A DNA stretch of 59,463 nt from Patescibacteria group bacterium (GTDB taxonomy: Bacteria > Patescibacteriota > Minisyncoccia > Moranbacterales > UBA2206), in contig JAKLFF010000005.1 in NCBI GenBank assembly GCA_022711335.1, positions 1 through 59,463 of the forward strand, written 5' to 3'. The position numbers and the translations under genes are program-made. Every line of letters starts with the position of its first letter. Position 1 is the stretch's first letter. This document shows positions 2,515-54,944 of the stretch, in pieces. The notes under the pieces are model-generated. The model had not been told where the DNA came from. It worked only from the letters and a program-made list of their open reading frames with translations, and did no database searches.

Positions 2515-2652
2515 AAAATTTTATAATTTTTGAATTTTTAATTTTATAAATAAATCTTAATTTTATAATTTTTAAACCAAGATGCGGGTTGCCATTAAAA
2601 ATTCGGATATTAAAAATTATTTAAAAATTACAAAATTACAAAATTAAAAATT
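2515..2652. repeat. opposed AT-rich heptamer-like arrays
   Basis: TTATAATTTTTGAATTTTTAATTTTATAA... is followed by ...TTAAAAATTACAAAATTACAAAATTAAAAATT, which ends 9 nt before the ftsA ATG. Confidence 0.75.
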
Positions 2653-2660
2653 ATTGCATC

Positions 2661-3920: not shown

Positions 3921-4014
3921 AGGCGATATGCAGCTAATTTGACATGATATGTTGCAATGTGTTAAATTTAACTACCGGAGAATTTATAGATGTGATTTAA
4001 AATTCTTCGCCAAA

Positions 4015-4157
4015 GGTGGATCAGCCTATGGCTGAAAAAATCAAAAATCAAAAATCAAAATTACAATTCAAAATGTAAAATTTGAATGATAATTTGGGTT
4101 TTTCTTTTTGATTTTTTATTTGTCATTTTGACTTTTGCATTTTGCATTTTGATTTTG
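4015..4157. repeat. composite element: GGTGGATCAGCCTATGGCTGA hairpin motif plus opposed CAAAA/TTTTG heptamer arrays
   Basis: The motif is at 4015-4035. It is followed by AAAAATC AAAAATC AAAAATC AAAATTA CAATTCA AAATGTA (4036-4085). The complementary TTTTG-type arm is at ~4096-4157. Confidence 0.85.
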
Positions 4158-4232
4158 AAAAAAATAATTTTTTCTAACATTTTTAGTTATTGCTTTTGAC
4201 TTTAAAATAAGCAGGAACTATAAACTATAATC

Positions 4233-5441
4233 ATGGCCGAAATAAAACCACCCGTGGAAACATTTGCGAGAATAAAAGTCGTTGGCGTCGGAGGATCCGG
4301 CGGCAGCGCGATAAGCCGGATGATCGAATCAAAACTTCGGGGTGTTGAATTTGTGGCGATCAACACGGACGCGCAGGCGCTTCATCACAACAAGGCGGCG
4401 GAGAAAGTGCATATCGGAAAAAATCTGACCAAAGGCCTCGGTGCCGGAATGAATCCGGATATCGGGCGCCAGGCGGCCGAAGAAAATCGCGATGAAATCC
4501 AGGACGTGCTCAAAGGCGCCGATATGGTTTTTGTTACTTGCGGATTGGGCGGCGGCACCGGTTCCGGCGCGGCGCCGATTGTAGCGGAAACGGCCAAGGA
4601 AATCGGAGCGCTTACAGTCGCTGTTATCACAAAACCTTTCAGTTTTGAAGGGGCGCAAAGAAGAGCGATTGCCGATGAAGCGCTGGAAAATCTCAAAGAG
4701 CGCGTTGATACTTTGATCACAATACCCAATGACAAGCTTCTGCAAATTATCGATAGGAAAACAACCTTGATAAACTCGTTTAAAATCGTGGACGATGTTC
4801 TCCGCCAGGGCGTGCAGGGAATTTCCGATCTTATCACCAAGCCGGGAATTGTGAATGTGGATTTTGCCGATGTCCGGGCGATTATGGCGGACAGCGGTTC
4901 AGCGCTCATGGGAATCGGAATTGGAACGGGGGAAAACCGTTCGGCTGAAGCGGCCAAGGCGGCCATCAACAGCCCGCTTCTCGAGCTTTCCATCGATGGC
5001 GCCAAGGGAGTGCTTTTCAACGTCAGCGGTTCAGTCGATCTTACCATGCTTGAAATCAACGAAGCGGCCAATATTATCACCGAGTCGATCGATCCCAATG
5101 CCAAAGTGATTTTCGGCGCGGTGATCGACGAAACGATGAAAAAAGGCGAAGTGCATATTACCGTCGTAGCAACCGGATTTGACGCGGAGCGGGTAAAAGA
5201 ATCCCCCCTTGAAAAAATGAGCCGCATGACTATTGAAGATATGCGCGGCAAGGAAAAAGAAGAAAAAAAAGAAAGAATAACTTATCCGGAAAAAATGGAG
5301 CCGAAGATGATTATTCCGGAAAAAGTTCCGCCCAAACCCCAAAGAACTATCAATGTTTCCAATGATACAAGAAATCTTGAAGAAGATGATGACGATGAAC
5401 TGGAAATACCGGCTTTTATCCGCAGAAAAATGGGGAAATAG
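4233..5441 (+). CDS. ftsZ: cell division GTPase FtsZ
   Basis: Tubulin signature [13 protein letters not shown] and NTDAQAL. The C-terminal conserved peptide is [13 protein letters not shown]. Confidence 0.95.
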
Positions 5442-27995: not shown

Positions 27996-28118
27996 CAAAT
28001 TGAATATTGAATATTATTTTCCGCAGACAGCAGGCAGCATGAAATGCATAATTCCTGCCGAGGAAATAACGCTTGAAGCGTTGTTTTATCCGCGGTAAGT
28101 ACGCGGATTGTTTGTTTA

Positions 28119-28224
28119 TTCTCTACGAATTACGAATCTGTACGAATATACCAATGTGAATTAAGTATGATTTAAAAAATTTACAGAGAATTAGTATATT
28201 CGTAATTAATTAGTAATTAGTAAA
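28119..28224. repeat. opposed heptamer arrays (TACGAAT dialect)
   Basis: TTCTCTACGAATTACGAATC (28119-28138) is identical to 39757-39776. The complementary arm is ...TAGTATATTCGTAATTAATTAGTAATTAG. Confidence 0.85.
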
Positions 28225-39882: not shown

Positions 39883-40054
39883 AGCTATATTCGCTTCAAT
39901 AGGAGCGAAACTCATATTTTTCGAGCTTTTCCTGCCCCTGCCTTGCGGGGGATAATAAGCCGGAAGGGCGGATTATTCTGCCGTTTCAACGAAAAATAGC
40001 GGATCCTGTCTCCGTTTGGCGGAATCAGGATATAAACAATTAAGGAATAAAATT

Positions 40055-40879
40055 ATGAACAGAGAAAAAGAATCTCCGAAAAAGGAGAAAGACGGCAAAG
40101 ATCGTTCTGCCGGACTTTCCGCTGAAAGCGGATCAGCCTCAAGCGGCGATTTTGGTGTTGATTTTGGCAAACTGGAAATCAATATCGAAAACATGTTTAA
40201 AAGCGGCGTCCATTTCGGCCATCATAAGTCAAGAAAAAATCCGAAAATGAACGATTATATTTTCGGGACCAGAAGCAACATAAATATTTTCAATCTCGAA
40301 ATTACGGCTGAAAAAATAAAATCTGCCACAAATTTCATTTCCGGGATTGTTGCTTCCGGGCAGGAAGTGGTTTTTGTTGGAACTAAAAAGCAAGCCAAAA
40401 ATCTAGTTGAGTCGGCCGCAAAAGCCTGCCAGATGCCTTATGTGAGCGAGAGATGGCTGGGAGGCACGTTTACCAATTTTTCTGAAATTTCCAAAAGGAC
40501 TCGATATCTTCGCGACGGGCAGGAAAAAATGAAGAAAGGGGAATTTGGAAAATATACTAAATTTGAACAAATGAAAATTGCCGAAGAGCTCGATCGCCTG
40601 GAAAGAAAAATGGGCGGAATAAAAAATATGCTTAAATTGCCAGGAGCAATTTTTGCTGTGAGCGCCATTGATGATTCTTTGGCAATCAAAGAAGCGGCAA
40701 TTAGGAATATTCCGGTTGTAGCGCTGGTTGACACCAATGCTTCTCCGGAAGGAATAAATTATCCGATTCCGGCCAATGAAGACGCAGTTTCTTCAATCAA
40801 ACTGATGCTGGCTTATATGGCAAAAGCGGTTTTGGACGGAAGAAAAAGAATAAATGAAAAAATAGATAAAAAAGAATAA
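40055..40879 (+). CDS. rpsB: 30S ribosomal protein S2
   Basis: Conserved core starts ...NMFKSGVHFGHHKSRKNPKM. Start placed at ATG 40055, which has AAGGA 8 nt upstream. The ~45-aa N-terminal extension includes a degenerate copy of the GATCAGCC hairpin motif. Confidence 0.85.
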   Translation: MNREKESPKKEKDGKDRSAGLSAESGSASSGDFGVDFGKLEINIENMFKSGVHFGHHKSRKNPKMNDYIFGTRSNINIFNLEITAEKIKSATNFISGIVASGQEVVFVGTKKQAKNLVESAAKACQMPYVSERWLGGTFTNFSEISKRTRYLRDGQEKMKKGEFGKYTKFEQMKIAEELDRLERKMGGIKNMLKLPGAIFAVSAIDDSLAIKEAAIRNIPVVALVDTNASPEGINYPIPANEDAVSSIKLMLAYMAKAVLDGRKRINEKIDKKE

Positions 40880-44609: not shown

Positions 44610-44680
44610 GCGGGTGTCGTACAGTGGTAGTACGGGAGTCTCCAAAACTTCTAACGGGGGTTCGATTCCCTCCACCCGTG
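44610..44680 (+). tRNA. tRNA-Trp (anticodon CCA)
   Basis: GCGGGTG/CACCCGT (G1-U72), GTAC/GTAC, GGAGT-CTCCAAA-ACTTC, GGGGG-TTCGATT-CCCTC, discriminator G. Confidence 0.85.
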
Positions 44681-46267
44681 CATAGTGCTAAGAAGTGGGC
44701 TTGATTGCCCGCTTTTTGCTTTTATACAGCCACTTTTCATCGGTTCTAACCTTTCAAATTCTCGCTGTATATCATCGTGCTTATTTACTACGGGCAAAAA
44801 CCATTCTTTGGCTTGTATAGCGGTTATTTTGTCTTTTATTGCGTGGTTCGAACCTAAATGAAATATAAGCTCTCTTCGTGTCTCATCGTCTCCAGTTAAA
44901 AACGCTTTGTGTGCGTAAGCGTAAAAGGCAAAAGTTTTTTCAGTCAGCTCCAAAGTTTTTTCTTTTCGGTCTTCGGCACTCATAGGCTCTTTGCTTAACT
45001 TTTCAATCTCTTTTTTTATCGGTTCGCTTTGGATTCTAAATTCTTCATCATCAATCATATCATTGCTACGCATTCGTATAAGATTTGACTGCTGGTTTTT
45101 CAGTTTTTCCAAAGTTTGTTGGCGAGTGTCCGCTATTATTTTTTCATCGTCCGCTTTGGTATCTTTTCTACTTTCAATTATTTCTAAAGCCAAAGAAAGC
45201 AACTCTTGGGGTATGGTGTATTTTGCAAGCTCAAATTCAAGCTGTTCAAAAAGTTTGCCTTCTTCCAAAACTTTATTTTGGGTGCATTTTATTTTTCTGC
45301 TTCTTCTGGTGCAATGATAATAGGTGTATTCTTTGATTTTACCAGTTTTCTTGTTGATTTTCCGTTTGGTTTCCGCGGTATAGGAACAACCACATTCGGG
45401 ACAACGGAAAAGCCCTGTGAAAGCGAAATGATGTTTTTTAGGTCTCGGTTTTCCCTTATATCCCAAAATAATTTGAGTTCTATCAAATTCATCCATCGTA
45501 ATCATTGCTTGGTGCTTTCCTGGGTAATGCGTTCCATTGTGCTCAATGATTCCCGCATAAAAGATATTGGTAAAAATCTTATACATTCCGCTCAATGCCA
45601 ATGGTTTGTCTCCAAGTCGTTTTTTCTTGATTGTTCGGAATCCCCATTCATTATTAAGTTTATCGGCAACTTGTGGCACTGTATAATTTCCAGTGAGTAT
45701 CAAATCCCACGCTTTGCGTAATAATCTGAACCGCAATGGGTCTATGGGCATTGTATGTGTTGCTAGGTCGTTTAGATAGCCTGTGGGTGCAATTCCAGGT
45801 CTCCAGCCGTCCTCTCGCTTCTTTTGGTTGCCTCGCTTCACGTTCACGCTCAATTCTCGGCAAAACTGATTTGCCATTCCGCTTTCAACGCTGAAAAGTA
45901 AAACATTGTCTTCAGGCTTAAATTCCTTTTCCATTGTCTGGATTGATTTTATAACTTCCTGTTGCAAAAGCCAGCTTATCTTTCCGCTATCTATCGGATT
46001 TCGAGATAAGCGGTTAAGATGCCAGCACAAAATTCCGTTTGCTTCGCCATTTTCAATTCTCCTCATCATTTCATCGAAGAGGGGACGATTGTTTGGTTTT
46101 TTGGCTGATTTCGCCTCGGTGTAAATGTGCTTGATGTGTAATCCCATATCTTTGGCTATTCGCTCCAATCTGCCTACTTGGTCGTCAATTGATTGCACCT
46201 GGCGGTCTTCGCTTTCCGAAGATTTTCTCGCATAAAGGAAATATTTTATTTGTTTGTCGTTTTTCAT
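44651..46267 (-). CDS. large serine recombinase
   Basis: The N-terminal resolvase domain is YARKSSESEDRQVQSIDDQ. It also has a recombinase domain, a zinc ribbon (CPECGCSY...YYHCTRR) and a coiled coil. The last 10 codons (HGWRESNPR*) are the reverse complement of the tRNA-Trp 3' end. Confidence 0.85.
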   Translation of the reverse strand: MKNDKQIKYFLYARKSSESEDRQVQSIDDQVGRLERIAKDMGLHIKHIYTEAKSAKKPNNRPLFDEMMRRIENGEANGILCWHLNRLSRNPIDSGKISWLLQQEVIKSIQTMEKEFKPEDNVLLFSVESGMANQFCRELSVNVKRGNQKKREDGWRPGIAPTGYLNDLATHTMPIDPLRFRLLRKAWDLILTGNYTVPQVADKLNNEWGFRTIKKKRLGDKPLALSGMYKIFTNIFYAGIIEHNGTHYPGKHQAMITMDEFDRTQIILGYKGKPRPKKHHFAFTGLFRCPECGCSYTAETKRKINKKTGKIKEYTYYHCTRRSRKIKCTQNKVLEEGKLFEQLEFELAKYTIPQELLSLALEIIESRKDTKADDEKIIADTRQQTLEKLKNQQSNLIRMRSNDMIDDEEFRIQSEPIKKEIEKLSKEPMSAEDRKEKTLELTEKTFAFYAYAHKAFLTGDDETRRELIFHLGSNHAIKDKITAIQAKEWFLPVVNKHDDIQREFERLEPMKSGCIKAKSGQSSPLLSTMHGWRESNPR

Positions 46268-46390: not shown

Positions 46391-46663
46391 TTACGAATTT
46401 AATTTTTTTAGATACTCGCTCTTTATTTTTGCCGTAATCTTTTTCCATAAATTGTCGCTAGCTCTACACATAAGGGAATCTTTGATTATCGGGGGCGTAA
46501 TACTGGGTCTATCAGGTTTTCCGCCCTCCCAAATGGAAAAGCCGATAATTTTGATAAATTCATTGCCTTCAAATTGAAGTGTTAAATCAGCGTGTGCCCG
46601 CAAGTTTGGATATTCGGTATTTTCAGAAATTCTCACCTCAACGAATATTCTTTCATTTTCCAT
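46391..46663 (-). CDS. hypothetical small protein
   Basis: 90-aa ORF co-directional with the recombinase. VEVRISENTEYPNLRAHADLTLQFEGNEFIKIIGFSIWEG has only a faint SpoVG-like flavour. Confidence 0.45.
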   Translation of the reverse strand: MENERIFVEVRISENTEYPNLRAHADLTLQFEGNEFIKIIGFSIWEGGKPDRPSITPPIIKDSLMCRASDNLWKKITAKIKSEYLKKLNS

Positions 46664-46677
46664 ATTTTTATTGATTG

Positions 46678-46941
46678 TTATTTCTTAATTTTCTGCCACA
46701 GTTCTTTTGAGGGCTTGTTGAGCGATTCTGAATTGCTCTCAGGGACGAAATTTAGGGGGACAGTTGGCATAGCTCTCCCGCCAGATAGAAAGTCTCGTCC
46801 GTTTATGTTTGCCTTTTTGGTCTCCCTTGAAAAAGGGCACTTGTCTTGTTTCTTTCCGCTTCTCAAGTGGAGGTCTGGGTCTAAAGGGCAAAAGTTTTTC
46901 CGACATCCATCGTATCTTGGGCATTTTTTCATATTATCCAT
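46678..46941 (-). CDS. hypothetical Cys-rich small protein
   Basis: 87 aa: CPRYDGCRKNFCPLD...KCPF, a possible metal-binding cluster. Confidence 0.45.
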   Translation of the reverse strand: MDNMKKCPRYDGCRKNFCPLDPDLHLRSGKKQDKCPFSRETKKANINGRDFLSGGRAMPTVPLNFVPESNSESLNKPSKELWQKIKK

Positions 46942-46944
46942 AGT

Positions 46945-47145
46945 TTATTTTCTAAGATTCTTGGAAAGTTTTTTTCTTCTTTTTTCCACTAATCTCATTT
47001 CTTTTTGAGTCATTGGTTTATATGTGAGCTCGACCATTCTCACAAGGCTTTCCGCTTTTTCACACACTTCCGCACGACTAAGTTCAACCCCGAATCGTTC
47101 GTGGTAGAGGACTTGATATTTTTTGATTTGGTCGTCAGAAAGCAT
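46945..47145 (-). CDS. hypothetical small helical protein
   Basis: 66 aa, 3 nt upstream of the next ORF, in the same operon-like string. Confidence 0.4.
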   Translation of the reverse strand: MLSDDQIKKYQVLYHERFGVELSRAEVCEKAESLVRMVELTYKPMTQKEMRLVEKRRKKLSKNLRK

Positions 47146-47220
47146 AAAAAAATCAAAGCTTTTACGCTTCGATTCTATAAAACGGACAGGTGATTCACCT
47201 TAGAATCACTAGAAGATTTG

Positions 47221-47895
47221 CTAAAATATTCTTTTTACAGTGTTATTTCTCCTGATAAAAAGCTCATCCTCTGTGGGAATATCAGCTTTAATCTTTTTGT
47301 TTACTGCTCGCATTGTATCATAAACACCTCGTCTTATTCTGGGGTCTCGTAAATCAGCATCTTCCCCATAAATTTTGTCAGCTATTTCTGACCAGTCGAT
47401 TTGTGTGTTTGGCTGTCTTTCAAAAACGAATTTGCAAAAGTAAAATTCGTGGGTATCAGGAGTAATTTCACTTTTTCTCGAGTCTACATAGATAGAAGAT
47501 TCATTCTCCACAAATTTTATTTCTCTTCCTTCTAAGCTTATCGGTTTGTTTTTTTCAAATAAAATAAAGTAAATTTCCTTTATTTTTTCTATGTCCAAAA
47601 TTTTAATCGTATTTTTACCAGGAAAAACTAATGGATTTTTTTCTTCCATATTAGGAAATTCGATTATGGAAGATTCTGATTTTGCAAGCTCAATCGCTTT
47701 TTCTTTTTCCAGATATTGCCAAAAAGAATCATTCATAGTAACTGATTTGTCGGTAATATCTTCATTTGGTAGGAAGCTTTCGATGGATATCACAAGAGGA
47801 GAATCAGAAAAGAAATTATCGCTTGAATATAAAATTTCTTCCAGGTACCTCTTAATTTGAGGCATTGGCTCGAATGGGAATTCCCCGATATTCAT
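47221..47895 (-). CDS. hypothetical protein with OmpR/PhoB-like winged-helix C-terminus
   Basis: The C-terminus ...DWSEIADKIYGEDADLRDPRIRRGVYDTMRAVNKKIK...FIRRNNTVKRIF resembles trans_reg_C winged-helix domains. Confidence 0.5.
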   Translation of the reverse strand: MNIGEFPFEPMPQIKRYLEEILYSSDNFFSDSPLVISIESFLPNEDITDKSVTMNDSFWQYLEKEKAIELAKSESSIIEFPNMEEKNPLVFPGKNTIKILDIEKIKEIYFILFEKNKPISLEGREIKFVENESSIYVDSRKSEITPDTHEFYFCKFVFERQPNTQIDWSEIADKIYGEDADLRDPRIRRGVYDTMRAVNKKIKADIPTEDELFIRRNNTVKRIF

Positions 47896-47999
47896 ATTGA
47901 TTTTACTAGATTTTTATTCTAGCTAAAGTTTATCAGATATAGCCGCTAAATCAAGCCTAAACGCTTGTATTTTAGGGCTATTTATATTATGATTTAGGT

Positions 48000-48135
48000 G
48001 TTCACCTATAGAGAAGTTTCCGTGAAGAAACTGCTTTTTCTATCCAGTTGTGGGTGGAAATGGGCAGTCGAGTTCCATAACTGGACGTCTTCACGGATAT
48101 CCTCTATGGGTGAACAGCTCGGCTGTCCTTTTTGT
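48000..48135 (+). ncRNA. candidate structured RNA: four nested helices plus small terminator-like hairpin
   Basis: H1 is 48000-48013/48102-48115 (13 WC pairs plus 1 U-G). H2 is 48020-48028/48088-48096 (9 bp perfect). H3 is 48044-48049/48079-48084. H4 is TGGAA/TTCCA. ACAGC-TCG-GCTGT then follows, with TCCTTTTTGTTTT. Confidence 0.4.
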
Positions 48136-48161
48136 TTTGGCTAAATATTATTTTCAATATA

Positions 48162-48719
48162 ATGAAAACTAAAATCATAATCGCAGTAGTGGCTTTGGTA
48201 ATCGGAGCAGTGACGTTCCCCGTTTTGGGAATGAAAATAAGCCCGACCAGAAATTTGATGATGAAACTCGCTCCTCGAGAAGCTATCCTAAATTTGGCAG
48301 ATAACATCAAACAGAAGGAACTAGGAGAACAACAAAAAATAGACTCAGAGGCAAAAGCCCAGGAAGTAATCCAGGAAGAAGCCCAACCAGAAGAAATTAT
48401 TTCAGAACCACAGCCAGAAATTATCCCCGCAGTTCAATCAGGAAACAATAAGGAGCAGATAGAAGCCTGCCAAAATACCAAAACCGAGTGTGAGAAAAAA
48501 ATAAAAAAAATCAAAAATGAAATTGATGATTTGGAAAATCAGGTTGAGGAACAGGAAAAAATTTACGATGAGGCAAAGGGTGGGAGCAGTAGCAATGAAA
48601 AAGCATTAAATTATCATAAGGCTATCTTAGAAAAATCAGAAAAAGACCTAAAACTTAGAAAAGCCGAACTTCAAAATATTACTAGCGGAGAATGTAAAAA
48701 TTATAATAAACCCTGCTAA
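48162..48719 (+). CDS. hypothetical membrane-anchored coiled-coil protein
   Basis: ATG 48162, N-terminal TM (IIIAVVALVIGAVTFPVLG), then an acidic/coiled-coil region. Confidence 0.5.
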   Translation: MKTKIIIAVVALVIGAVTFPVLGMKISPTRNLMMKLAPREAILNLADNIKQKELGEQQKIDSEAKAQEVIQEEAQPEEIISEPQPEIIPAVQSGNNKEQIEACQNTKTECEKKIKKIKNEIDDLENQVEEQEKIYDEAKGGSSSNEKALNYHKAILEKSEKDLKLRKAELQNITSGECKNYNKPC

Positions 48720-48723
48720 AAAA

Positions 48724-49056
48724 ATGGAAAAAAGTAAATTAGACAAAGCCGTAAAATGGAGTGTGATTATTTCCGCCTCATTATTCTTGCTTCTTGTTAT
48801 TTTTCTTCCTTCTTATTTTTTCCTCTATCTGCCCAGAGTTCATAAGCTGAATGAAAAAAAAGTTAATGAGTGTTTAAGAGACGTTTCTGATAGAAAAATT
48901 AAATTTTTGGAAAATAGAATAGCGGAAGAAGAAAGCGGGACTAAAACATATACCACAGAAGAAAAAACGGATATAACCACAACCTTAGAGGGATTAGAAA
49001 AACAGGAAGAAAAAGAGTGTTATAAAAAATACCCCACTAAATTTCAATTGCCATAG
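48724..49056 (+). CDS. hypothetical single-pass membrane protein
   Basis: 110 aa with TM WSVIISASLFLLLVIFLPSYFFLYL. It starts 5 nt after the previous stop. Confidence 0.5.
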   Translation: MEKSKLDKAVKWSVIISASLFLLLVIFLPSYFFLYLPRVHKLNEKKVNECLRDVSDRKIKFLENRIAEEESGTKTYTTEEKTDITTTLEGLEKQEEKECYKKYPTKFQLP

Positions 49057-49417: not shown

Positions 49418-50707
49418 ATGGACATATTGAACCAGTCAATTAAATCACTTAATTTTGCTGATATTATTGCTTTTTGCCAAGAAAAAAATCGTGAAGGAAT
49501 TCAAATTGATTACAAAAAAGAATATCCCCAAAAAGGAATAGCGAAACATTTCGCCTCTTTCTCAAATACCCGAGGAGGGATATTGATTATCGGAGTCGAG
49601 GAAGATAGAAAATCCGGAGTTCCTATTGCTTGGGAGAGCATAGAATGTGATGCAAAAATAATAGAAAAAATAAATCAGGAAGCAAGTAATGTTGAACCTA
49701 TTCCCGCCTTCGACGTTCACATTACCGACGAGATAAATGGAAAGAGATTTGTTTTAGTTCGAGTATATGAAGGAGATAAGACGCCATATTATGTACAAAA
49801 TGATTCCAATGTTTGGGTAAGAACGGGAAATATAAGCAATTCAATCGACATTGCCTCTCCTGATGGATTAGAATTATTGTTTGGAAAAAAAGAAAAGGCA
49901 GAAAAAGCCAGAAATAATTTTTTATCAATAAGCGACGAATTACACGAAGCAGCAATCGGAAAGGAAGAGAAAAGAATCAGGGAGGAACTGAGAAAAGAGG
50001 CAGAAAAAGAAGGAAGCACGACTATTTTTAGATATGAAAAAACAATAGGAGTTTATGACTCCATATGCAAGATAACATTACAGCCATATTTTCCAGGTAA
50101 ATCCCTCACGACCCCAAAGAAAATCAAAGATGACATTGATTCAATCCGTTTTAGAAATCGCAACTTCGTATTTCCGGATTTAAATGTCGAGCCATCGCCA
50201 AAGGGAATACGATATTTTTCTTATCAAAGAAGCAGAGAAATACTTGAATCTCAAGTAGTGTTAGGGCAAGGGCTAATTCAAGATATTTTTACGGCTTCAA
50301 GAAAGAGTCCGGATGAAAAATCTAGAATAATAAGCCTTCGGGCAATTGCCGTTAGAATTTTCGGAATATTCAAATTTGCCGATAGATTCTACGATAAATA
50401 TGGTTATCAAGGCGTGCTCCTTGGAAATATAGAAATAAACGGAGCTACAGATGTGCTTGAAGACGTTTTAGTCAGAAGGATGGTACCAATAGGTTCGGAT
50501 TTTTGGGAGGAGGATAAAACAAAAGAAAGTTTATTGTCCGATTATTTATGGGAAATAAAAATTGATACAAGGATATTGAAAGAAAAAGATGAACTGAGAA
50601 AATATTACGAGGAACTTTTGGAAGAAATTTACTGGGACTTTGGATTTGAAGAAATTGGCGATGGCGTTTTAGATAAATTTTTGGAGGAAAATGGGTTCAC
50701 ATTCTAA
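49418..50707 (+). CDS. AlbA_2 (Schlafen-like putative DNA-binding) domain protein
   Basis: The N-terminus ...FADIIAFCQEKNREGIQIDYKKEYPQ..IAKHFASFSNTRGGILIIGVEED... is the AlbA_2 pattern. I do not recognise the C-terminal ~280 aa. Confidence 0.6.
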   Translation: MDILNQSIKSLNFADIIAFCQEKNREGIQIDYKKEYPQKGIAKHFASFSNTRGGILIIGVEEDRKSGVPIAWESIECDAKIIEKINQEASNVEPIPAFDVHITDEINGKRFVLVRVYEGDKTPYYVQNDSNVWVRTGNISNSIDIASPDGLELLFGKKEKAEKARNNFLSISDELHEAAIGKEEKRIREELRKEAEKEGSTTIFRYEKTIGVYDSICKITLQPYFPGKSLTTPKKIKDDIDSIRFRNRNFVFPDLNVEPSPKGIRYFSYQRSREILESQVVLGQGLIQDIFTASRKSPDEKSRIISLRAIAVRIFGIFKFADRFYDKYGYQGVLLGNIEINGATDVLEDVLVRRMVPIGSDFWEEDKTKESLLSDYLWEIKIDTRILKEKDELRKYYEELLEEIYWDFGFEEIGDGVLDKFLEENGFTF

Positions 50708-50805
50708 TAGCTTATTAAAGCCAGTCTTAGGGAGTATTCCCGGCGGTAGTTTATATTCTTATCCCCCTCCCGCTCATAGGGAATTTATGTTATAATTTGT
50801 TTATA

Positions 50806-51789
50806 ATGTTCTCATCAGAAACTAAAACTAAAGAAATAATTGACAGCCTAGTCCGTCTATCCAGAGAAGTCGAAATTTGTAATGGGGCGGGCTTTTTTGA
50901 TGGTAACAAGTGTGCCGAAGATTTTTTTAAGGGCATTTTGAACCGAGTTTATGATTGTAATCTTATCAATCTTAATTTGGAAAAAAATAATTTTCCTGCA
51001 ATTGACTTAGGTGATAAATCTAAGAAATTAGCAATTCAAGTTACGGCGAGCATAGGAAGAACAAAAATTTCAAATTCTATAACGAAATTTGTAAATCATA
51101 ACCTCTGTGATACTTACAAAAAGCCCATATTTTTAATTATTGGAAAAAAACCAAAATACTCCAAAAATTTCGATACCGACACGAAGGGAAAATTTATTTT
51201 CAATCCGTCCGAAGATATTTTAGATATTACCGATTTGATAAAAATAATTTCATCTTTGCCCATTGAAAAAATCACAGACATCAATAAGTTTATTATTTCT
51301 AATATTACAGAAGTACTATCTGTTGACCCGATTAAAATTAACGAGCAGGATATCAAAAATTTAATTCTAGGCATAAGAGATGTTATAAATGACGATACCT
51401 CGTTTAAACCAAAATATTCCAGTGATATTCCGATGAGATTCCAAGATTATATTGTAGAAAAAAATAAGCTAAATGAAATTGATAAATTGTTTTTCGAACA
51501 GGTGTTCGCCAGAAGCCTGAAATATAGTGATGATATTAAGAATTTTTTATCCGACCCCATAAACGTAGAGATAAAAGAGTGGTATTTTACTATTAGCAGT
51601 GAACTCCAGAATGAGTATGTAAAAAATAGAGAGAAGTTCGATTTGCTGGAATTTATAGATAAAATTTATGATAAGGTCTGCGAGAAATTTAAGGCGGATT
51701 TGTCATATGACAAAAGAAAAATCAAAGTAATGCTTCATTGTATGTATTTTCATTGTGATTTAGGAATAAATCCAGAGAAAAAAACATAA
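50806..51789 (+). CDS. SMEK-like domain protein (putative effector component of an ABC-3C system)
   Basis: ...NKCAEDFFKGILNRVYDCNLINLNLEKNNFPAIDLGDKSKKLAIQVTASIGRTKISNSITKF... matches my memory of the SMEK N-terminal domain. ATG 50806 is preferred over TTG 50797. Confidence 0.55.
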   Translation: MFSSETKTKEIIDSLVRLSREVEICNGAGFFDGNKCAEDFFKGILNRVYDCNLINLNLEKNNFPAIDLGDKSKKLAIQVTASIGRTKISNSITKFVNHNLCDTYKKPIFLIIGKKPKYSKNFDTDTKGKFIFNPSEDILDITDLIKIISSLPIEKITDINKFIISNITEVLSVDPIKINEQDIKNLILGIRDVINDDTSFKPKYSSDIPMRFQDYIVEKNKLNEIDKLFFEQVFARSLKYSDDIKNFLSDPINVEIKEWYFTISSELQNEYVKNREKFDLLEFIDKIYDKVCEKFKADLSYDKRKIKVMLHCMYFHCDLGINPEKKT

Positions 51790-52031
51790 TGATAACACCA
51801 AATAAATATACAAATTTAGACTTATCGGTCTTGAATATCGGGGCTGAAATTGTTAAAGTGCTTCAAAAAAGCAGAATTCTTAAATATGATGACCTACTGA
51901 GTCAGATTTTATTAAAGAAAGGAAGGGGGGCAAAAGAAATTTTTGTCTATTCCTTAAATTTTTTATTTGTCCTGAATATAATTAAATATCATAGTTCTGA
52001 GGATATAATCGAATTTTATGAAACTCGTTAA
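51789..52031 (+). CDS. small helical protein (putative ABC-3C middle component)
   Basis: 80 aa. Its start overlaps the upstream stop (TAATG), and its end overlaps the next ATG by 14 nt. Confidence 0.5.
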   Translation: MITPNKYTNLDLSVLNIGAEIVKVLQKSRILKYDDLLSQILLKKGRGAKEIFVYSLNFLFVLNIIKYHSSEDIIEFYETR

Positions 52032-53778
52032 AATATATTCTAATATCTCTAGTATGAAGCCAGTTATTTTTAATTCTGGCTTAAATATAATATATGGCGA
52101 TGTAAACCAATACGAAGGAGACAGTAACGAGCATAATTTAGGAAAAACTTCGCTTGTCTACCTGATAGACTTCTTATTATTAAAAAAAATAGATAAAAAT
52201 AATATATTCAGGAAAAGAAGAAGTAATTTTTTAGGCTGGGATTTTTATTTGGAAATAGAGCTGGATGATAAATCGTATCTTACGATTAAAAGAAATCTAG
52301 TTAATGATTCTAAAATATCAATTAAACTCCATAAGGAAGGGAATCAGGATTTGTCGTCGGAGATATTTTGGGACTATAAAGATAAATCAATAAGTGCAAA
52401 AAAAGAAGAGGAAAATGCGGTTAAGATTTTAAAAAATATATTAAAATTCGATGTCTTAAACGAATATAATTTGAGGCATTTTCTTTCCTATCTTCTAAGA
52501 ACCCAAAATGATTATACGGATGTTTTTAGATTAAGTACATTTAAAAAAGATAAAAATTGGAAACCACCTCTTCTTTCCCTATTTGGATATAACGGTCAGC
52601 TATTTGAGAAAAAGTATGATTTAGAGCAGGAAATTACAATTCGCAGAGAATTGATTGCAAAAATGAAGTCTGATAATCTCATAGATAAATCAGAAGAGGC
52701 TTTTAAATTGCAAGCCGCCATTAAAGTTAGGGAAGATGAAAAAAAATCAATAGAAAAAAATCTTGAAATGCTAAATTTTTTTACTAGGGATGAACAAATG
52801 ACGGAAAAAATAGTGAAAGAATTTGAGACAAAAATTAGTATTCTAAATTCTGAGGAATACAGTCTAAAATACGAGATTGATAAGATTAAGAAATCATTAG
52901 AAAACAATGTTTCCGTTAAAGTTTCTGATGTTAAAAAGATATATGAAGAGGTGGAGATATTTTTTCCGGATAAGCTTACTAAATCTTATGAGGAATTAGC
53001 CAATTTCAATAAACAAATTTCTGACGAGAGGTCAAAGTACCTTAAAAAAGAGTTGGACAGTCTGGATGATAGACTGATGATTATTAAAAAAGACCTCAAG
53101 GAATATAATGATAAATTATCAGAAGCCCTATCAATAATAAAGGAGAAGGATGCATTCATAAAATTCAGAAAATATCAAAACGAGCTTATAAAAATCGAAA
53201 CAGACATCGCTATATATAAACAAAAAATTGATAGTATTGACACTATAGAAAATTATAGTAATGCAATTAGCGAGATAAGAGAAAAATCTAAAGAAATATC
53301 CTCAATAATTAAGGGAGATTTGGCGGAAGAAAAAAATCCATTACAAGAAATACGTGAGATGTACACTGAGATTTTTAAAAAAACTATGGATGGAACTGCT
53401 ACTTTTGCCATAACTCCAAATAAATATGGCTATTTTGATTTTGAGCCGTTTGTTATAAGTGGCGGTGATTTAACAGGACAAGGAGATGGATACACTGCTA
53501 CAAAAGTTCAATGTGCCGCGTTTGTCATAGCGGCATTAGCTTATTATTCAAAAAATTCTTTTTATAAATTTGCCTATCACGATGGTATTTTTGAAGGCTG
53601 GGGAGATAATCCTAAGATAAATTTTATCAATCTAATTAGGGAATATTGTGATAAATATAAGATTCAGTATATCGCAAGTATGATAAAAAGCGATATCCCT
53701 AAAAACTTTGATTTTGAAAAAGAAGAAATAGTGATTACCTTAGACAAGAGTCAGCCATTATTTGGTATTCGATTTTAA
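52018..53778 (+). CDS. DUF2326-type ABC ATPase with long coiled-coil insert (putative ABC-3C ATPase)
   Basis: The N-terminus is MKLVKIYSN...VIFNSGLNIIYGD...NEHNLGKTSLVYLIDFLL (Walker A-like). It is followed by ~350 aa of coiled coil and a C-terminal head with ...FAYHDGIFEGWGDN... Confidence 0.6.
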   Translation: MKLVKIYSNISSMKPVIFNSGLNIIYGDVNQYEGDSNEHNLGKTSLVYLIDFLLLKKIDKNNIFRKRRSNFLGWDFYLEIELDDKSYLTIKRNLVNDSKISIKLHKEGNQDLSSEIFWDYKDKSISAKKEEENAVKILKNILKFDVLNEYNLRHFLSYLLRTQNDYTDVFRLSTFKKDKNWKPPLLSLFGYNGQLFEKKYDLEQEITIRRELIAKMKSDNLIDKSEEAFKLQAAIKVREDEKKSIEKNLEMLNFFTRDEQMTEKIVKEFETKISILNSEEYSLKYEIDKIKKSLENNVSVKVSDVKKIYEEVEIFFPDKLTKSYEELANFNKQISDERSKYLKKELDSLDDRLMIIKKDLKEYNDKLSEALSIIKEKDAFIKFRKYQNELIKIETDIAIYKQKIDSIDTIENYSNAISEIREKSKEISSIIKGDLAEEKNPLQEIREMYTEIFKKTMDGTATFAITPNKYGYFDFEPFVISGGDLTGQGDGYTATKVQCAAFVIAALAYYSKNSFYKFAYHDGIFEGWGDNPKINFINLIREYCDKYKIQYIASMIKSDIPKNFDFEKEEIVITLDKSQPLFGIRF

Positions 53779-53996
53779 TATTTTGAATATGAAGTTTCAG
53801 GAAGAATTTCTGGCTACACCTCATTTTTTAGACCCCCTCCCCCTATTCGGCGGGTTTGGAATTAGCTTTTTATAAAAAATATAATAGTGGGTAGGGGATA
53901 GCGATTTACTGGTAGTTTTTTCTTAGGTCAGGTATATAAATATATTCATTCTTGTTTTCGAAGATAGTTATGACTTCTTCGACTACTGCGTGCTAA

Positions 53997-54027
53997 TAAA
54001 AAAATGGCTGTTTAAAGCCATTTTTTT
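53997..54027. terminator. bidirectional hairpin terminator at the right edge of the AT-rich island
   Basis: AAAAAAA-ATGGCT-GTTTAA-AGCCAT-TTTTTTT. A similar ATGGCT...AGCCAT hairpin occurs at ~33856-33880. Confidence 0.65.
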
Positions 54028-54063
54028 GATGGGGGAAAAGGAAAGTTAGAACTAATTTATTAG

Positions 54064-54173: not shown

Positions 54174-54944
54174 ATGAAAATGACAGCCATAATTCTTGCT
54201 GGCGGCTTGGCTACCAGAATGGGCGAAATTTGTTGCGAAATTCCAAAATCAATGCTTCAGTTTGCTGGTTGTCCGTTTCTTCAATATCTGGTTAGCTGGC
54301 TAGTGAGGCTTGGATTGAATGAAATTCTGATTTCAACTGGAAAGTTGAGTGACAGAATTGAATTCTTGTTTGCAACTAATTTTTGGAGCTCTAAAGGCGT
54401 GAGGATTGTTAGAGAAGACGAACCTCTTGGAACAGGCGGAGCAACAAAATTTGCTTGCCAGAATTGTTCCAATGAAGATGTTTTTCTCTGCAATGGCGAT
54501 ACGCTTGTGTCCCTAAGCCTTGTCCGTCTTTATGAAATTCACAGAGTCTTAAATGTGCCGATAACATCTGTTCTCACCTTGAGCAAGGAAGTTCCCAATC
54601 AAGGAGCTGTTTCCGTTGAAAACGGAATTGTAGTTGAGTTCCGCGAAGGCGAGGAAGCAAGAGAGCCGATTGACGGAGAAAATTATTTTCGCGGAAGTAG
54701 CACTGGTTGCTACTTCCTGAAACGTTCATCGGTTTTGTCATTGTTTCCTGCTGGAATTTCATCGCTTGAAAGAGAGATTTTGCCGAATTTAGTGTCGGCA
54801 AAAATGATTGGTGCGATTAACAATGGGTTTGGTTTTTTTCTGGATTATGGAATTCCTCAAAGATACGAAATTCTCAAAAACAATCTGTGGATTCTCAAGA
54901 GAATCTACGGCGAACCGATTACAGGAGGTAATAAGAATGAGTAA
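54174..54944 (+). CDS. sugar-phosphate nucleotidyltransferase
   Basis: MTAIILAGGLATRMG...IPKSML is the N-terminal NTP-transferase motif. Confidence 0.75.
   Translation: MKMTAIILAGGLATRMGEICCEIPKSMLQFAGCPFLQYLVSWLVRLGLNEILISTGKLSDRIEFLFATNFWSSKGVRIVREDEPLGTGGATKFACQNCSNEDVFLCNGDTLVSLSLVRLYEIHRVLNVPITSVLTLSKEVPNQGAVSVENGIVVEFREGEEAREPIDGENYFRGSSTGCYFLKRSSVLSLFPAGISSLEREILPNLVSAKMIGAINNGFGFFLDYGIPQRYEILKNNLWILKRIYGEPITGGNKNE

What the first reader, a model, noticed from the sequence alone, without database searches (positions are those of the whole stretch)
50806..53778. Three-gene SMEK-like / small middle component / DUF2326 coiled-coil ABC ATPase operon: an ABC-3C-type conflict system on the island
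Seen in sequence:
- Three ORFs are translationally coupled. 51789 shares TAATG with the upstream stop, and 52018 starts 14 nt before the previous stop.
- They sit in the most AT-rich part of a recombinase-bearing island.
- ORF3 (586 aa) has an ABC/SMC-like head split by ~350 aa of coiled coil. Its N-terminus (IYSN...FNSGLNIIYGD...HNLGKTSL..LIDFLL) is what I remember for DUF2326.
- ORF2 is an 80-aa helical protein.
- ORF1 carries the AIDLGD...LAIQVTAS...K block that I associate with the SMEK domain.

Established knowledge, from memory: the Aravind-lab classification of ABC ATPases (Krishnan et al., NAR 2020) predicted 'ABC-three component' systems made of exactly these parts: an ABC ATPase, a small middle component and a variable effector. 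As far as I know no member has been characterised biochemically or shown to protect against phage.

Inference: this is a compact ABC-3C locus in a probable CPR-type genome. The ORF1 D...Q-x-T...K spacing might be a degenerate PD-(D/E)xK nuclease site.
Basis: partly seen in the sequence, partly recalled or inferred. Interest (0 to 1): 0.8.

Follow-up and report, generated by a model that had tools for sequence, protein, structure and literature searches.

The report
Lamassu defence operon, SMEK nuclease type
This is an intact three-gene Lamassu (ABC-3C) anti-phage/anti-plasmid operon with a SMEK nuclease effector, recently acquired by a CPR (Patescibacteria) bacterium; the system type is already catalogued and its relatives are mechanistically understood, so it is a correct but ordinary finding.

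Summary
The three coupled ORFs are present as described.
- ORF1 is a SMEK_N nuclease head plus the ABC-3C CTD12 tail.
- ORF2 is an ABC-3C middle component (MC8/MC6).
- ORF3 is a DUF2326/YydD ABC ATPase, about 590 aa, with a roughly 265-aa coiled coil.

The ORF3 model is closest to B. subtilis YydD. Solved Lamassu LmuB chains are among the next best matches, and its N-terminal head hits PADLOC LmuB models.

The same triad recurs in Bacteroidota, Bacillota, Proteobacteria, CPR genomes and 35 plasmids. The tail stays constant while the effector head varies. All three genes are under strong purifying selection (dN/dS 0.03–0.10).

The cassette is 97% identical in protein to one in a Parcubacteria MAG lineage whose ribosomal protein S2 is only 62% identical, which points to recent horizontal transfer.

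ABC-3C is now treated as (type II) Lamassu, with phage and plasmid defence data and cryo-EM structures. SMEK is listed as a short-Lamassu effector (PNAS 2025). No experiment on the SMEK/DUF2326 subtype itself was found.

Verdict: new member of a known kind, low interest.

The parts
50806..51789 (+). lmuA-like effector gene (327 aa). The SMEK_N nuclease head is aa 10-148 (nt 50833-51249). The ABC-3C CTD12 tail is aa 175-320 (nt 51328-51765).
   Evidence: Pfam SMEK_N 1.5e-42 and CTD12 2.7e-15. NCBIfam SMEK_N 7e-27. PDB 26bh_D 'Mrr domain' of Kordia Mrr-APAZ at 6.5e-21. D67, Q78, T80 and K87 are invariant. AF2 model pLDDT 85. dN/dS 0.098 against L001.
51789..52031 (+). lmuC-like middle component gene (80 aa).
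   Evidence: Pfam MC8 7e-11 and MC6 8.3e-9. TAATG overlap with ORF1. An equivalent 78-87 aa gene sits between effector and ATPase in L002, L003, L005, L006, L007, L009 and L011. dN/dS 0.041.
52018..53778 (+). lmuB-like SMC/Rad50-type ABC ATPase of the DUF2326/YydD family (586 aa). N-terminal head aa 1-192 (nt 52018-52593), coiled coil aa 193-457 (52594-53388), C-terminal head aa 458-586 (53389-53775).
   Evidence: Pfam DUF2326 3.5e-16. PADLOC PDC-M68B 2.3e-50. The N-terminal head alone hits PADLOC LmuB at 2e-8 and 2e-4. AF2 pLDDT 85.5. Foldseek: YydD 9a6c_A 3.9e-23, LmuB 9uxh_F 8.4e-13, LmuB 9hqu_A 4.9e-11. Walker A K43 and Walker B D522 are invariant. dN/dS 0.034.
50755..54035 (+). Block shared at 91.5% nucleotide identity with a Parcubacteria MAG (L001). 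This is the transferred cassette: the operon plus its short flanks.
   Evidence: blastn of L001 against the window. The flanks outside the block are unrelated, apart from the AlbA_2 gene.
50763..50771 (+). CCCCCTCCC motif, upstream copy, 43 nt before the ORF1 ATG. Function unknown.
   Evidence: The 9-mer occurs only twice in the 59-kb window, at both cassette flanks and in the same orientation. It is conserved at the equivalent positions in L001 and absent from the flanks in L002-L007.
53833..53841 (+). CCCCCTCCC motif, downstream copy, 55 nt after the ORF3 stop.
50788..50796 (+). Possible extended -10 promoter element TGTTATAAT, about 10 nt upstream of the ORF1 ATG. This would imply a very short leader or a leaderless mRNA. 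Inference only.
   Evidence: Read directly from the sequence. The generic promoter scan was not above background.
53998..54030 (.). Hairpin with flanking A and T runs (AAAAAAATGGCTGTTTAAAGCCATTTTTTTG), a likely terminator at the end of the shared block.
   Evidence: Read directly from the sequence. It lies inside the block shared with L001. The consensus scan did not call it.
49418..50707 (+). Neighbouring gene for a Schlafen/AlbA_2-domain protein (429 aa). It is linked to the cassette but is not shown to be part of the system.
   Evidence: Pfam SLFN_AlbA_2 2.1e-15. It lies next to the cassette in the window, in L012, L013 and L015, and, with three extra ORFs in between, in L001. Its dS is 0.91 against 0.40 for the operon.
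44651..46267 (-). Large serine recombinase whose 3' end overlaps tRNA-Trp (44610-44681). It is the possible integrase of the low-GC region from 44.6 to 54.1 kb.
   Evidence: Pfam Resolvase, Recombinase and Zn_ribbon_recom. tRNA-Trp. No att duplicate was found.

Best explanation
The operon is a short, type II Lamassu (ABC-3C) defence system. ORF3 is the LmuB-like SMC/Rad50-type ABC ATPase of the DUF2326/YydD clade. ORF2 is the LmuC-like middle component. ORF1 is the LmuA-like effector, with a SMEK (Mrr-like PD-(D/E)xK) nuclease head fused to a CTD12 tail.

Shown here:
- the domain identities;
- the SMC-like fold, which is closest to YydD, with solved LmuB chains among the next best matches;
- conservation of the triad across phyla and plasmids, with a constant tail and swappable heads;
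- strong purifying selection on all three genes;
- recent horizontal acquisition by a CPR bacterium.

Inferred by analogy with the solved Vibrio, Salmonella and Bacillus Lamassu complexes:
- An ORF3 dimer holds one ORF1 monomer, through CTD12, and one ORF2 on its coiled coils. This keeps the nuclease inactive.
- Binding of free dsDNA ends, or of replication intermediates of a phage or plasmid, together with the ATP state of the heads, releases ORF1.
- Released ORF1 oligomerises through CTD12. This brings SMEK heads together into an active nuclease that degrades DNA indiscriminately and aborts the infection.
For: Domain identities:
- Pfam SMEK_N and CTD12, MC8/MC6, and DUF2326.
- PADLOC PDC-M68B at 2.3e-50 over the full length.
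- The ORF3 N-terminal head alone hits PADLOC LmuB at 2e-8 and 2e-4.

Structure:
- The ORF3 AF2 model (pLDDT 85.5) has a split ABC head and a coiled coil of about 265 aa.
- Its best PDB matches are YydD (3.9e-23), then LmuB from type II Lamassu (8.4e-13) and from Salmonella Lamassu (4.9e-11), alongside SMC and Rad50 heads.
- The two best hits of the ORF1 model are YydB (0.018, prob 0.99) and LmuA (0.34).
- The SMEK head matches the solved Mrr domain of the Kordia pAgo partner. D67, Q78, T80 and K87 are invariant.

Conservation and selection:
- The triad is conserved in Labilibaculum, Gracilibacteria, Minisyncoccia, Stutzerimonas and Bradyrhizobium.
- It is also found on 35 plasmids, where RefSeq already labels the genes ABC-three component system.
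- The heads on CTD12 vary: SMEK, Mrr-like, none, or an unknown head next to a metallo-beta-lactamase gene.
- dN/dS is 0.098, 0.041 and 0.034 for ORF1, ORF2 and ORF3.

Literature:
- ABC-3C is treated as Lamassu (PMC10586767).
- BcLmuA carries CTD12. LmuB proteins have a naturally deviant Walker B. The LmuA-LmuB2-LmuC complex senses DNA ends and releases LmuA, which tetramerises (10.1101/2025.06.23.660979).
- SMEK is listed as a short-Lamassu effector, and short LmuB proteins are about 600 aa (PMC12663957).
Against: - No experiment on a SMEK-type or DUF2326-type Lamassu was found. Only one paper mentions both SMEK and Lamassu.
- The sequence-level link to LmuB is limited to the N-terminal head. 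Neither the full-length protein nor a 31-sequence profile hit any solved LmuB by sequence. PADLOC v2 files the ATPase under a candidate system (PDC-M68), not under Lamassu.
- The ATPase motifs deviate from the published short-Lamassu consensus. Walker A lacks the first Gly (NEHNLGKT). Walker B is hhhHD-G/N rather than hhhhD[Q/S/T/E], with an acidic residue at +4. ATP hydrolysis is therefore uncertain.
- The CTD12 and ORF2 folds could not be tied to the solved LmuA CTD or LmuC with significant scores.
- Complex stoichiometry could not be modelled.
- ORF3 found no match in 50,697 phage records, and nothing here identifies a trigger.
Confidence: 0.8

Rival explanations
1. The operon mainly serves the mobile element that carries it, rather than protecting the host from phage. 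It could act in plasmid or MGE exclusion, as DdmABC does, or as an addiction-type module that stabilises the island.
For: - The cassette moves horizontally: ORF3 is 97% identical between lineages whose S2 proteins are 62% identical.
- It sits in a low-GC, recombinase-bearing region.
- 24 of the 35 plasmid hits are on conjugative plasmids.
- In Bradyrhizobium it lies next to a serine recombinase and an IS21 gene. In Citrobacter it lies next to an integrase, a RelE/ParE toxin gene and an IS256 transposase gene.
- Vibrio DdmABC is known for eliminating plasmids (cited in PMC12663957).
Against: Known Lamassu systems do both, so this is a difference of emphasis rather than of mechanism. In Stutzerimonas the triad sits beside a type I restriction-modification system, a typical defence-island context.
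Confidence: 0.12
2. The ATPase is a degenerate remnant, and the operon is a decaying or non-functional copy.
For: Walker A is non-canonical. The catalytic Glu after the Walker B Asp is missing. No His was seen in the H-loop region.
Against: The same deviations are invariant across 31 homologs and across distant DUF2326 proteins, so they are family traits. All three ORFs are full length relative to their homologs. dN/dS is 0.03-0.10. Characterised LmuB proteins also have a deviant Walker B yet hydrolyse ATP.
Confidence: 0.03
3. ORF3 is a housekeeping SMC/RecN/RecF/SbcC-type repair or chromosome-maintenance protein, and the neighbouring genes are incidental.
For: SMC, Rad50, MukB and JetC heads are significant structural matches, at 1e-12 to 1e-7.
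Against: NCBIfam gave no match to any housekeeping family. YydD is the best structural match and LmuB chains are among the next best. The gene always travels with an MC gene and a CTD-bearing effector. It is horizontally transferred and low in GC.
Confidence: 0.02
4. ORF1 is the nuclease partner of a short prokaryotic Argonaute, making this a SPARMA-like, guide-directed system.
For: The SMEK head is closely related to the Mrr/SMEK domain of the Kordia Mrr-APAZ protein and to SMEK proteins of about 495 aa, such as P0135. P0135 lies in a restriction-gene neighbourhood, next to a 476-aa gene with no Pfam hit.
Against: The C-terminal half of ORF1 is CTD12, not the longer tail of the ~495-aa proteins, and it does not align with that tail. 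The adjacent genes are MC8 and DUF2326, not an Argonaute.
Confidence: 0.01

Closest known systems
Short type II Lamassu / ABC-3C (Vibrio cholerae DdmABC = LmuACB; Salmonella enterica LmuACB; PDB 9uxh, 9hqu, 9hqx, 9nxx)
   Same: The gene order is effector, small middle component, then an SMC-like ATPase of about 600 aa, on one strand with overlapping ORFs. The effector is a variable head plus a helical CTD. The ATPase has a split ABC head, a coiled coil, no Zn hook and a deviant Walker B. The ORF3 fold matches LmuB at 8e-13 to 6e-10.
   Different: The effector head is SMEK rather than Cap4. The tail is CTD12 and the middle component is MC8, against CTD7 and MC3 in Vibrio. The ATPase belongs to the DUF2326 clade, and only its N-terminal head detects LmuB HMMs. 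Walker B is D-G, not D-[Q/S/T/E]. This subtype has no experimental data.
Type I Lamassu BcLmuAB (Bacillus cellulasensis)
   Same: The BcLmuA tail is described as CTD12, the same Pfam family as the ORF1 tail. The proposed activation, release followed by CTD-mediated tetramerisation, should therefore transfer best from this system.
   Different: BcLamassu lacks a middle component and uses a Cap4 nuclease head.
Bacillus subtilis YydB-YydC-YydD (YydD is the DUF2326 prototype; PDB 9a6c is an integrative model of YydD-YydB)
   Same: YydD is the best structural match for ORF3 (3.9e-23) and YydB is the best match for ORF1 (0.018, prob 0.99). Many ORF3 homologs are annotated 'YydD (DUF2326 family)'.
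   Different: ORF3 is only 16% identical to YydD in the structural alignment. That YydB carries a different effector head (a metallophosphoesterase) is from my own memory and was not tested here. No paper linking yydBCD to Lamassu was found.
SPARMA / Kordia jejudonensis Mrr(SMEK)-APAZ plus short pAgo
   Same: It has the same SMEK nuclease domain, with E = 7.4e-42 for the profile against PDB 26bh_D and the same invariant D...QxT...K block. A SMEK-APAZ/short pAgo heterodimer, which other papers identify as the Kordia system of Kim et al. 2020, was reported to mediate guided target DNA cleavage (as cited in PMC10810196 and 10.1101/2025.04.08.647717).
   Different: The sensor is an Argonaute with an APAZ domain, not an SMC-like ATPase. 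ORF1 has no APAZ domain.
PADLOC candidate system PDC-M68
   Same: ORF3 matches PDC-M68B over its full length at 2.3e-50.
   Different: ORF1 did not hit a PDC-M68 partner model. It hit Aga_REase-PNTD1-PNTD2 at 1.5e-41 instead, so the effector differs from the one in the PADLOC seed. PDC-M68 is a candidate system, not a validated one.
SbcCD / Mre11-Rad50
   Same: It has the same ABC head plus coiled-coil architecture and is a significant structural match. It is the proposed evolutionary source of Lamassu (PMC12663957).
   Different: ORF3 has a much shorter coiled coil and no CxxC zinc hook. There is no Mre11/SbcD phosphoesterase partner. The gene is carried on mobile, low-GC DNA.

Membership tests
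Lamassu / ABC-3C (short, type II) | An SMC/Rad50-like ABC ATPase of about 600 aa, with a coiled coil inserted between the N- and C-terminal head halves (LmuB) | tested here: met
   The AF2 model (pLDDT 85.5) has heads at aa 1-192 and 458-586 and helices at 193-457. Foldseek matches LmuB 9uxh_F at 8.4e-13 and 9hqu_A at 4.9e-11. PADLOC LmuB models hit the N-terminal head at 2e-8 and 2e-4.
Lamassu / ABC-3C (short, type II) | A small middle-component gene (LmuC / an MC family) between the effector and the ATPase | tested here: met
   ORF2 matches MC8 at 7e-11 and MC6 at 8.3e-9, both above the Pfam cut-offs. The position is conserved in other loci.
Lamassu / ABC-3C (short, type II) | An effector protein with a variable N-terminal enzymatic head and a conserved ABC-3C C-terminal domain | tested here: met
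   ORF1 is SMEK_N plus CTD12. In other loci the same CTD12 carries an Mrr-like head, no head or an unknown head. BcLmuA is described as carrying CTD12.
Lamassu / ABC-3C (short, type II) | Conserved co-directional, tightly spaced operon across unrelated genomes and mobile elements | tested here: met
   The ORFs overlap by 1 and 14 nt. The triad is found in 5 phyla and on plasmids.
Lamassu / ABC-3C (short, type II) | The ATPase motifs reported for LmuB: Walker A Gx4GK[S/T] and, for short LmuB, Walker B hhhhD[Q/S/T/E] | tested here: inconclusive
   G42-K43-T44 and D522 are invariant. However, the first Gly of Walker A is absent (NEHNLGKT), and the residue after the Walker B Asp is G (N in the proteobacterial members), with a conserved acidic residue at +4. 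This is deviant in the same spirit as LmuB, but it is not the published pattern.
Lamassu / ABC-3C (short, type II) | Called as Lamassu by dedicated detection models (current DefenseFinder Lamassu models, which include a SMEK subtype) | not testable with these tools
   DefenseFinder is not available here. PADLOC v2 assigns full-length ORF3 to PDC-M68B rather than LmuB. The PNAS supplement listing the detected systems is not held.
Lamassu / ABC-3C (short, type II) | An LmuA1:LmuB2:LmuC1 complex, with activation by DNA ends and effector release and oligomerisation | not testable with these tools
   No multimer prediction or biochemistry is available. This is inferred.
Lamassu / ABC-3C (short, type II) | Protects against phage or plasmids | not testable with these tools
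   This needs an experiment. No published test of a SMEK or DUF2326 subtype was found.
SMEK (Mrr-like PD-(D/E)xK) nuclease domain | Match to the SMEK_N profile and to the solved domain | tested here: met
   Pfam 1.5e-42. NCBIfam 7e-27. PDB 26bh_D at 6.5e-21 and, with a profile, 7.4e-42.
SMEK (Mrr-like PD-(D/E)xK) nuclease domain | Conserved putative catalytic residues on a PD-(D/E)xK-type core | tested here: met
   D67, Q78, T80 and K87 are invariant in 33 sequences, and E38 is mostly conserved as E or Q. In the model, D67 sits immediately before strand 68-70, Q78 and T80 lie in strand 75-80 and K87 lies in helix 85-97. Their catalytic role was not tested.
Short pAgo system (SPARMA) | An APAZ domain fused to the nuclease, with an adjacent short Argonaute gene | tested here: not met
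   The ORF1 C-terminal half is CTD12 and does not align with the tail of the ~495-aa SMEK proteins. The neighbouring genes are MC8, DUF2326 and AlbA_2.
Housekeeping SMC / RecN / RecF / SbcC | Match to the curated family models | tested here: not met
   NCBIfam returned no family for ORF3 at E <= 1. Pfam found only DUF2326 above its cut-off.

The most novel reading that the evidence does not exclude
The DUF2326/CTD12/MC8 clade may be a mechanistically distinct branch of Lamassu. Its ATPase lacks the first Walker A glycine and any catalytic residue directly after the Walker B Asp (D-G/N, with an acidic residue at +4). It might therefore act as an ATP-binding switch, or use a relocated catalytic base, rather than follow the hydrolysis cycle described for Vibrio, Salmonella and Bacillus LmuB. 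Separately, in CPR bacteria the cassette may move between distantly related lineages as a discrete unit bounded by the conserved CCCCCTCCC-containing flanks, by a transfer or insertion mechanism not yet described.
Probability: 0.1. Interest if true: 0.5.

Novelty: new member of a known kind. Interest (0 to 1): 0.2.

Why it matters
The finding adds a well-supported, intact Lamassu system of the SMEK subtype to a CPR/Patescibacteria genome, a group that is poorly represented in surveys of defence systems. The main Lamassu census used only complete RefSeq genomes.

It also documents recent horizontal transfer of the cassette between divergent CPR lineages. Because the SMEK/DUF2326/CTD12 subtype has not been tested experimentally, this compact 3-kb operon would be a reasonable construct for such a test.

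It does not open a new question. The architecture, the family names and a detailed mechanistic model for related systems already exist, and RefSeq annotation already labels such genes as ABC-three component system proteins.

Tried and rejected
- **Sequence searches of the PDB.** Full-length ORF3 and a 31-sequence profile returned only coiled-coil noise. The link to LmuB appeared only through fold comparison and after the coiled coil was removed.
- **ORF2 and the CTD12 half of ORF1.** Neither had a significant match to PDB sequences or PADLOC models. The full-length ORF1 model gave only weak fold hits, although the top two were the expected partners.
- **Genome scan.** I spent the single genome-contig scan on a single-protein query, which retrieved only the near-identical Parcubacteria locus. 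I obtained neighbourhoods through the look-up of encoding contigs and plasmid tblastn instead.
- **Island borders.** No direct repeat of the tRNA-Trp 3' end was found, and no convincing att repeat.
- **Promoter and terminator scans.** Counts were at background level.
- **Krishnan et al. 2020.** The paper is not held, so its content is cited only through papers that cite it.
- **PNAS supplement.** The table of detected Lamassu systems is not held, so I could not check whether the Labilibaculum locus is on the published list.
- **Literature on yydBCD and Lamassu.** Nothing relevant was found. One broader search was mostly noise.
- **Phage records.** ORF3 has no homolog in the 50,697 phage records.
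- **CCCCCTCCC as a general feature.** Rejected: the motif is absent from the flanks of L002-L007.

Full report
**1. Observation**

The three ORFs exist as described. ORF1 runs from 50806 (ATG; an alternative TTG lies at 50797) to 51789 and encodes 327 aa. ORF2 is 51789..52031 (80 aa) and ORF3 is 52018..53778 (586 aa). All are on the + strand.

The ORF1 stop and ORF2 start share TAATG, and ORF3 starts 14 nt before the ORF2 stop. GC falls to 0.28-0.31 between 51 and 54 kb, the lowest in the window, against about 0.40 elsewhere.

A large serine recombinase (Resolvase, Recombinase and Zn_ribbon_recom domains) lies at 44651..46267 on the - strand. Its 3' end overlaps tRNA-Trp at 44610-44681. Housekeeping genes resume at 54174: a nucleotidyltransferase, then a phosphoglucomutase/phosphomannomutase.

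I could not define the island ends. There is no second copy of the tRNA 3' end and no convincing direct repeat.

**2. What the proteins are**

- **ORF1.** Pfam gives SMEK_N (1.5e-42, aa 10-148) plus 'C-terminal domain 12 of the ABC-3C systems' (2.7e-15, aa 175-320). NCBIfam independently calls SMEK_N.
- **ORF2.** Pfam gives ABC-3C middle component MC8 (7e-11) and MC6 (8.3e-9).
- **ORF3.** Pfam gives DUF2326 (3.5e-16, aa 460-586 only). PADLOC assigns it over its full length to the candidate system PDC-M68B (2.3e-50).
- **PADLOC on ORF1.** The hit is an Argonaute-associated REase model (1.5e-41).

ORF3 homologs are uniformly about 590 aa, and many are annotated 'YydD (DUF2326 family)'. A profile search of 1.84 billion cluster representatives finds 693 clusters at E <= 1e-30 and 1671 at E <= 1e-10. 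The family is moderately large and uniform in length.

**3. Relationship of ORF3 to Lamassu LmuB**

By sequence, neither ORF3 nor a 31-member profile hits any solved structure apart from coiled-coil noise.

The AF2 model (pLDDT 85.5) shows an ABC head split by helices spanning residues 193-457. Its best PDB matches are:
- B. subtilis YydD, in an integrative YydD-YydB model (3.9e-23);
- LmuB of a type II Lamassu (9uxh_F, 8.4e-13);
- an SMC head (8.6e-12);
- Salmonella LmuB (9hqu_A, 4.9e-11);
- Rad50, MukB, cohesin, condensin and JetC heads after that.

When the coiled coil is removed, the N-terminal head alone hits two PADLOC LmuB models (2e-8 and 2e-4).

There is no CxxC zinc hook in ORF3 or in the coiled coils of 30 homologs. 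This is compatible with short LmuB proteins, which carry zero to two hooks.

The ATPase motifs are conserved but deviant:
- Walker A is xHNLGK[T/S], or NGVGKS in distant members, and lacks the first Gly of Gx4GK.
- Walker B is hhhHD followed by G (or N), with a conserved acidic residue at +4.
- Q163 is invariant in the 31-sequence alignment; in the two most distant members the aligned residue is E.

A naturally deviant Walker B is also a stated property of characterised LmuB proteins, which still hydrolyse ATP. However, the published short-Lamassu pattern is hhhhD[Q/S/T/E], not D-G.

**4. The effector**

The SMEK head matches the solved 'Mrr domain from Kordia jejudonensis Mrr-APAZ pAgo' (26bh_D), at 6.5e-21 with the single sequence and 7.4e-42 with a profile.

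In an alignment of 33 SMEK proteins, N62, I66, D67, L68, A76, Q78, T80 and K87 are invariant. The alignment includes ~495-aa members (P0135, P0142, P0164), which I take to be the SMEK-APAZ type.

In the AF2 model (pLDDT 85), D67 sits immediately before a strand at 68-70, Q78 and T80 lie in the next strand (75-80), and K87 lies in the following helix. This geometry fits a PD-(D/E)xK variant in which the lysine has moved onto the helix. That reading is an inference.

SMEK is treated in the literature as a nuclease domain of short-pAgo partners, and a SMEK-APAZ/short pAgo pair was reported to mediate guided target DNA cleavage (PMC10810196; 10.1101/2025.04.08.647717).

Residues 180-315 of ORF1 form a helical bundle. 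The two best fold hits of the whole model are YydB (0.018, prob 0.99) and LmuA (0.34). These are weak, but they are exactly the partners of YydD and LmuB.

**5. Co-occurrence elsewhere**

- SMEK_N+CTD12 / MC8 / DUF2326 occurs in Labilibaculum antarcticum, a Gracilibacteria genome and a Minisyncoccia MAG. In the Minisyncoccia MAG the middle gene is uncalled but present; in the Gracilibacteria locus it could not be read with table 11.
- SMEK proteins of 319 aa with a different tail sit upstream of a ~80-aa gene and a DUF2326 ATPase in Stutzerimonas, next to a type I R-M system, and in Bradyrhizobium, next to a serine recombinase and an IS21 gene.
- tblastn finds ORF3 relatives on 35 plasmids, 24 of them conjugative. 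RefSeq already annotates the neighbours there as 'ABC-three component system protein' and 'middle component 8/6'. No phage record matches.
- On the constant CTD12 tail, the head is SMEK (this window), weakly Mrr_cat-like (Citrobacter), absent (183-200-aa proteins in B. mycoides and Agrobacterium), or unknown and preceded by a metallo-beta-lactamase gene (Paenibacillus).
- ORF3 is 30-47% identical to the ATPases paired with CTD12 proteins. It is only 16-17% identical to those paired with the other SMEK tail. The ATPase therefore co-varies with the tail and middle component, while the SMEK head has been shuffled.
- In every locus examined, the operon GC is 5-11 points below that of its flanks.

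**6. Function and history in this genome**

A Parcubacteria MAG (L001, JBAZUU010000003.1) shares window 50755-54035 at 91.5% nucleotide identity, with otherwise unrelated flanks.

Between the two copies, dN/dS is 0.098 for ORF1, 0.041 for ORF2 and 0.034 for ORF3, with the same dS of about 0.40 for all three. All three genes, including the 80-aa one, are therefore under strong purifying selection as a unit.

The window's ribosomal protein S2 has only Patescibacteria, Moranbacteria and Parcubacteria among its named relatives.

The S2 protein that I attribute to the L001 lineage (P0288) is only 62% identical to the window's, against 97% for ORF3. P0288's longest contig is 172,883 nt, the same length as the L001 contig, but this attribution was not directly confirmed. 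The contrast argues for recent horizontal transfer of the cassette.

The window's ORF1 occurs identically on at least 10 metagenome contigs from several samples.

**7. Comparison with what is known**

Reviews and primary papers now treat ABC-3C as part of the Lamassu superfamily (PMC10586767). Type II Lamassu is stated to be the same thing as ABC-3C (10.1101/2025.06.23.660979). That paper also reports:
- that the tail of the type I effector BcLmuA belongs to CTD12, the family found in ORF1;
- that Lamassu complexes contain an LmuB dimer with one LmuA, plus one LmuC in type II;
- that DNA ends and ATP state trigger release of LmuA, which tetramerises through its CTD into an active nuclease.

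The PNAS study divides Lamassu into short (~600 aa LmuB) and long (~800 aa) forms. It lists SMEK, with HNH and lipase, as effectors specific to short Lamassu (PMC12663957 / 10.1101/2025.04.02.646746).

So the kind of system is known and catalogued.

What remains untested is this particular subtype. I found no experiment on a SMEK-bearing or DUF2326-type Lamassu.

**8. Mechanism proposed**

The parts and their conservation are shown. The rest is inferred by analogy:
- A dimer of ORF3 sequesters one ORF1 monomer through CTD12, together with one ORF2.
- The complex senses dsDNA ends or replication intermediates of an invader.
- ORF1 is released, oligomerises through CTD12, and its SMEK heads form an active nuclease that degrades DNA. 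The infection is aborted or the plasmid eliminated.

The main uncertainty is whether an ATPase with a D-G Walker B hydrolyses ATP or only binds it.

**9. Verdict**

The operon is a new member, in a CPR genome, of a known kind: short type II Lamassu with a SMEK effector. Interest is low, because both the architecture and the mechanistic framework are already published and the genes are recognised by standard annotation.

Residual curiosities are the deviant ATPase motifs of the DUF2326 clade, the conserved CCCCCTCCC motif on both cassette flanks and the linked AlbA_2 gene.

Noticed in passing
window 50763-50771 and 53833-53841; L001 4746 and 7816: The 9-mer CCCCCTCCC occurs exactly twice in the 59-kb window, on the same strand. 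One copy is 43 nt upstream of ORF1 and the other 55 nt downstream of ORF3. The same two positions are conserved in the 91%-identical cassette of L001. By eye, the ~55-nt contexts align ungapped at roughly 60%. The motif is not found flanking the triad in six other loci. It could be a cassette-border repeat or a regulatory site. It remains unexplained.
   Followed up: partly
window 49418-50707 (+); L001 1012-2289: A 429-aa Schlafen/AlbA_2-domain protein lies immediately upstream of the Lamassu cassette here and on other metagenome contigs (L012, L013, L015). In L001 it is also upstream, but three unannotated ORFs (2569-4603) are inserted between it and the cassette. Its dS against L001 is 0.91, compared with 0.40 for the operon, so it has a different history. 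It may be an independent defence or regulatory gene of the same hotspot.
   Followed up: partly
window 40016-40879 compared with P0288; window 52018-53778 compared with L001 6001-7761: Ribosomal protein S2 is 62% identical between the window and the Parcubacteria MAG lineage that carries L001. The Lamassu ATPase is 97% identical. This indicates recent horizontal transfer of the cassette between divergent CPR bacteria.
   Followed up: partly
window 44610-46267: The 3' end of a large serine recombinase gene (- strand) overlaps the 3' end of tRNA-Trp (+ strand). No duplicated tRNA fragment or att repeat was found anywhere in the window, so the far border of the presumed island is undefined. Four ORFs without firm Pfam assignments (46391-49056) lie between the recombinase and the AlbA_2 gene.
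   Followed up: partly
window 50788-50796: An extended -10-like element, TGTTATAAT, ends about 10 nt before the ORF1 ATG. No Shine-Dalgarno sequence is visible, which suggests a leaderless or very short-leader transcript. This is inference only.
   Followed up: no
L010 2730-3281 (B. mycoides plasmid); L011 2670-3272 (Agrobacterium plasmid): The 'effector' proteins upstream of DUF2326 at these loci are only 183-200 aa and consist of CTD12 alone, with no enzymatic head. This resembles the effector-less short-Lamassu clade mentioned in the PNAS paper.
   Followed up: partly
L003 2361-4782 (Paenibacillus sp. HWE-109 chromosome): A four-gene variant: a metallo-beta-lactamase-fold gene, then a 380-aa protein with an unassigned N-terminal domain plus CTD12, then an MC gene, then DUF2326. 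The region is followed by small HTH-type genes and other short ORFs.
   Followed up: no
L002-L007, operon compared with flanks: In all six other loci the three-gene operon has 5-11 percentage points lower GC than the surrounding 8-9 kb. This holds whatever the genome GC, with operon values from 0.19 to 0.54.
   Followed up: no
L008 4001-6927 (Anaerolineales MAG): A 499-aa SMEK protein is followed by a 476-aa gene with no Pfam hit, presumably a short pAgo. The pair is embedded between an MmeI-like methyltransferase/restriction gene and a GmrSD-like gene, forming a defence island.
   Followed up: no
L001 9780-10667: Downstream of the cassette in the Parcubacteria MAG lies a 295-aa protein containing an HPFxDGNGR Fic motif. 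This was read from the translation and not checked against a profile.
   Followed up: no
window 28003-28122 (+): Rfam ribosomal protein L10 leader, 59.3 bits against a gathering score of 44. It is unrelated to the finding.
   Followed up: no
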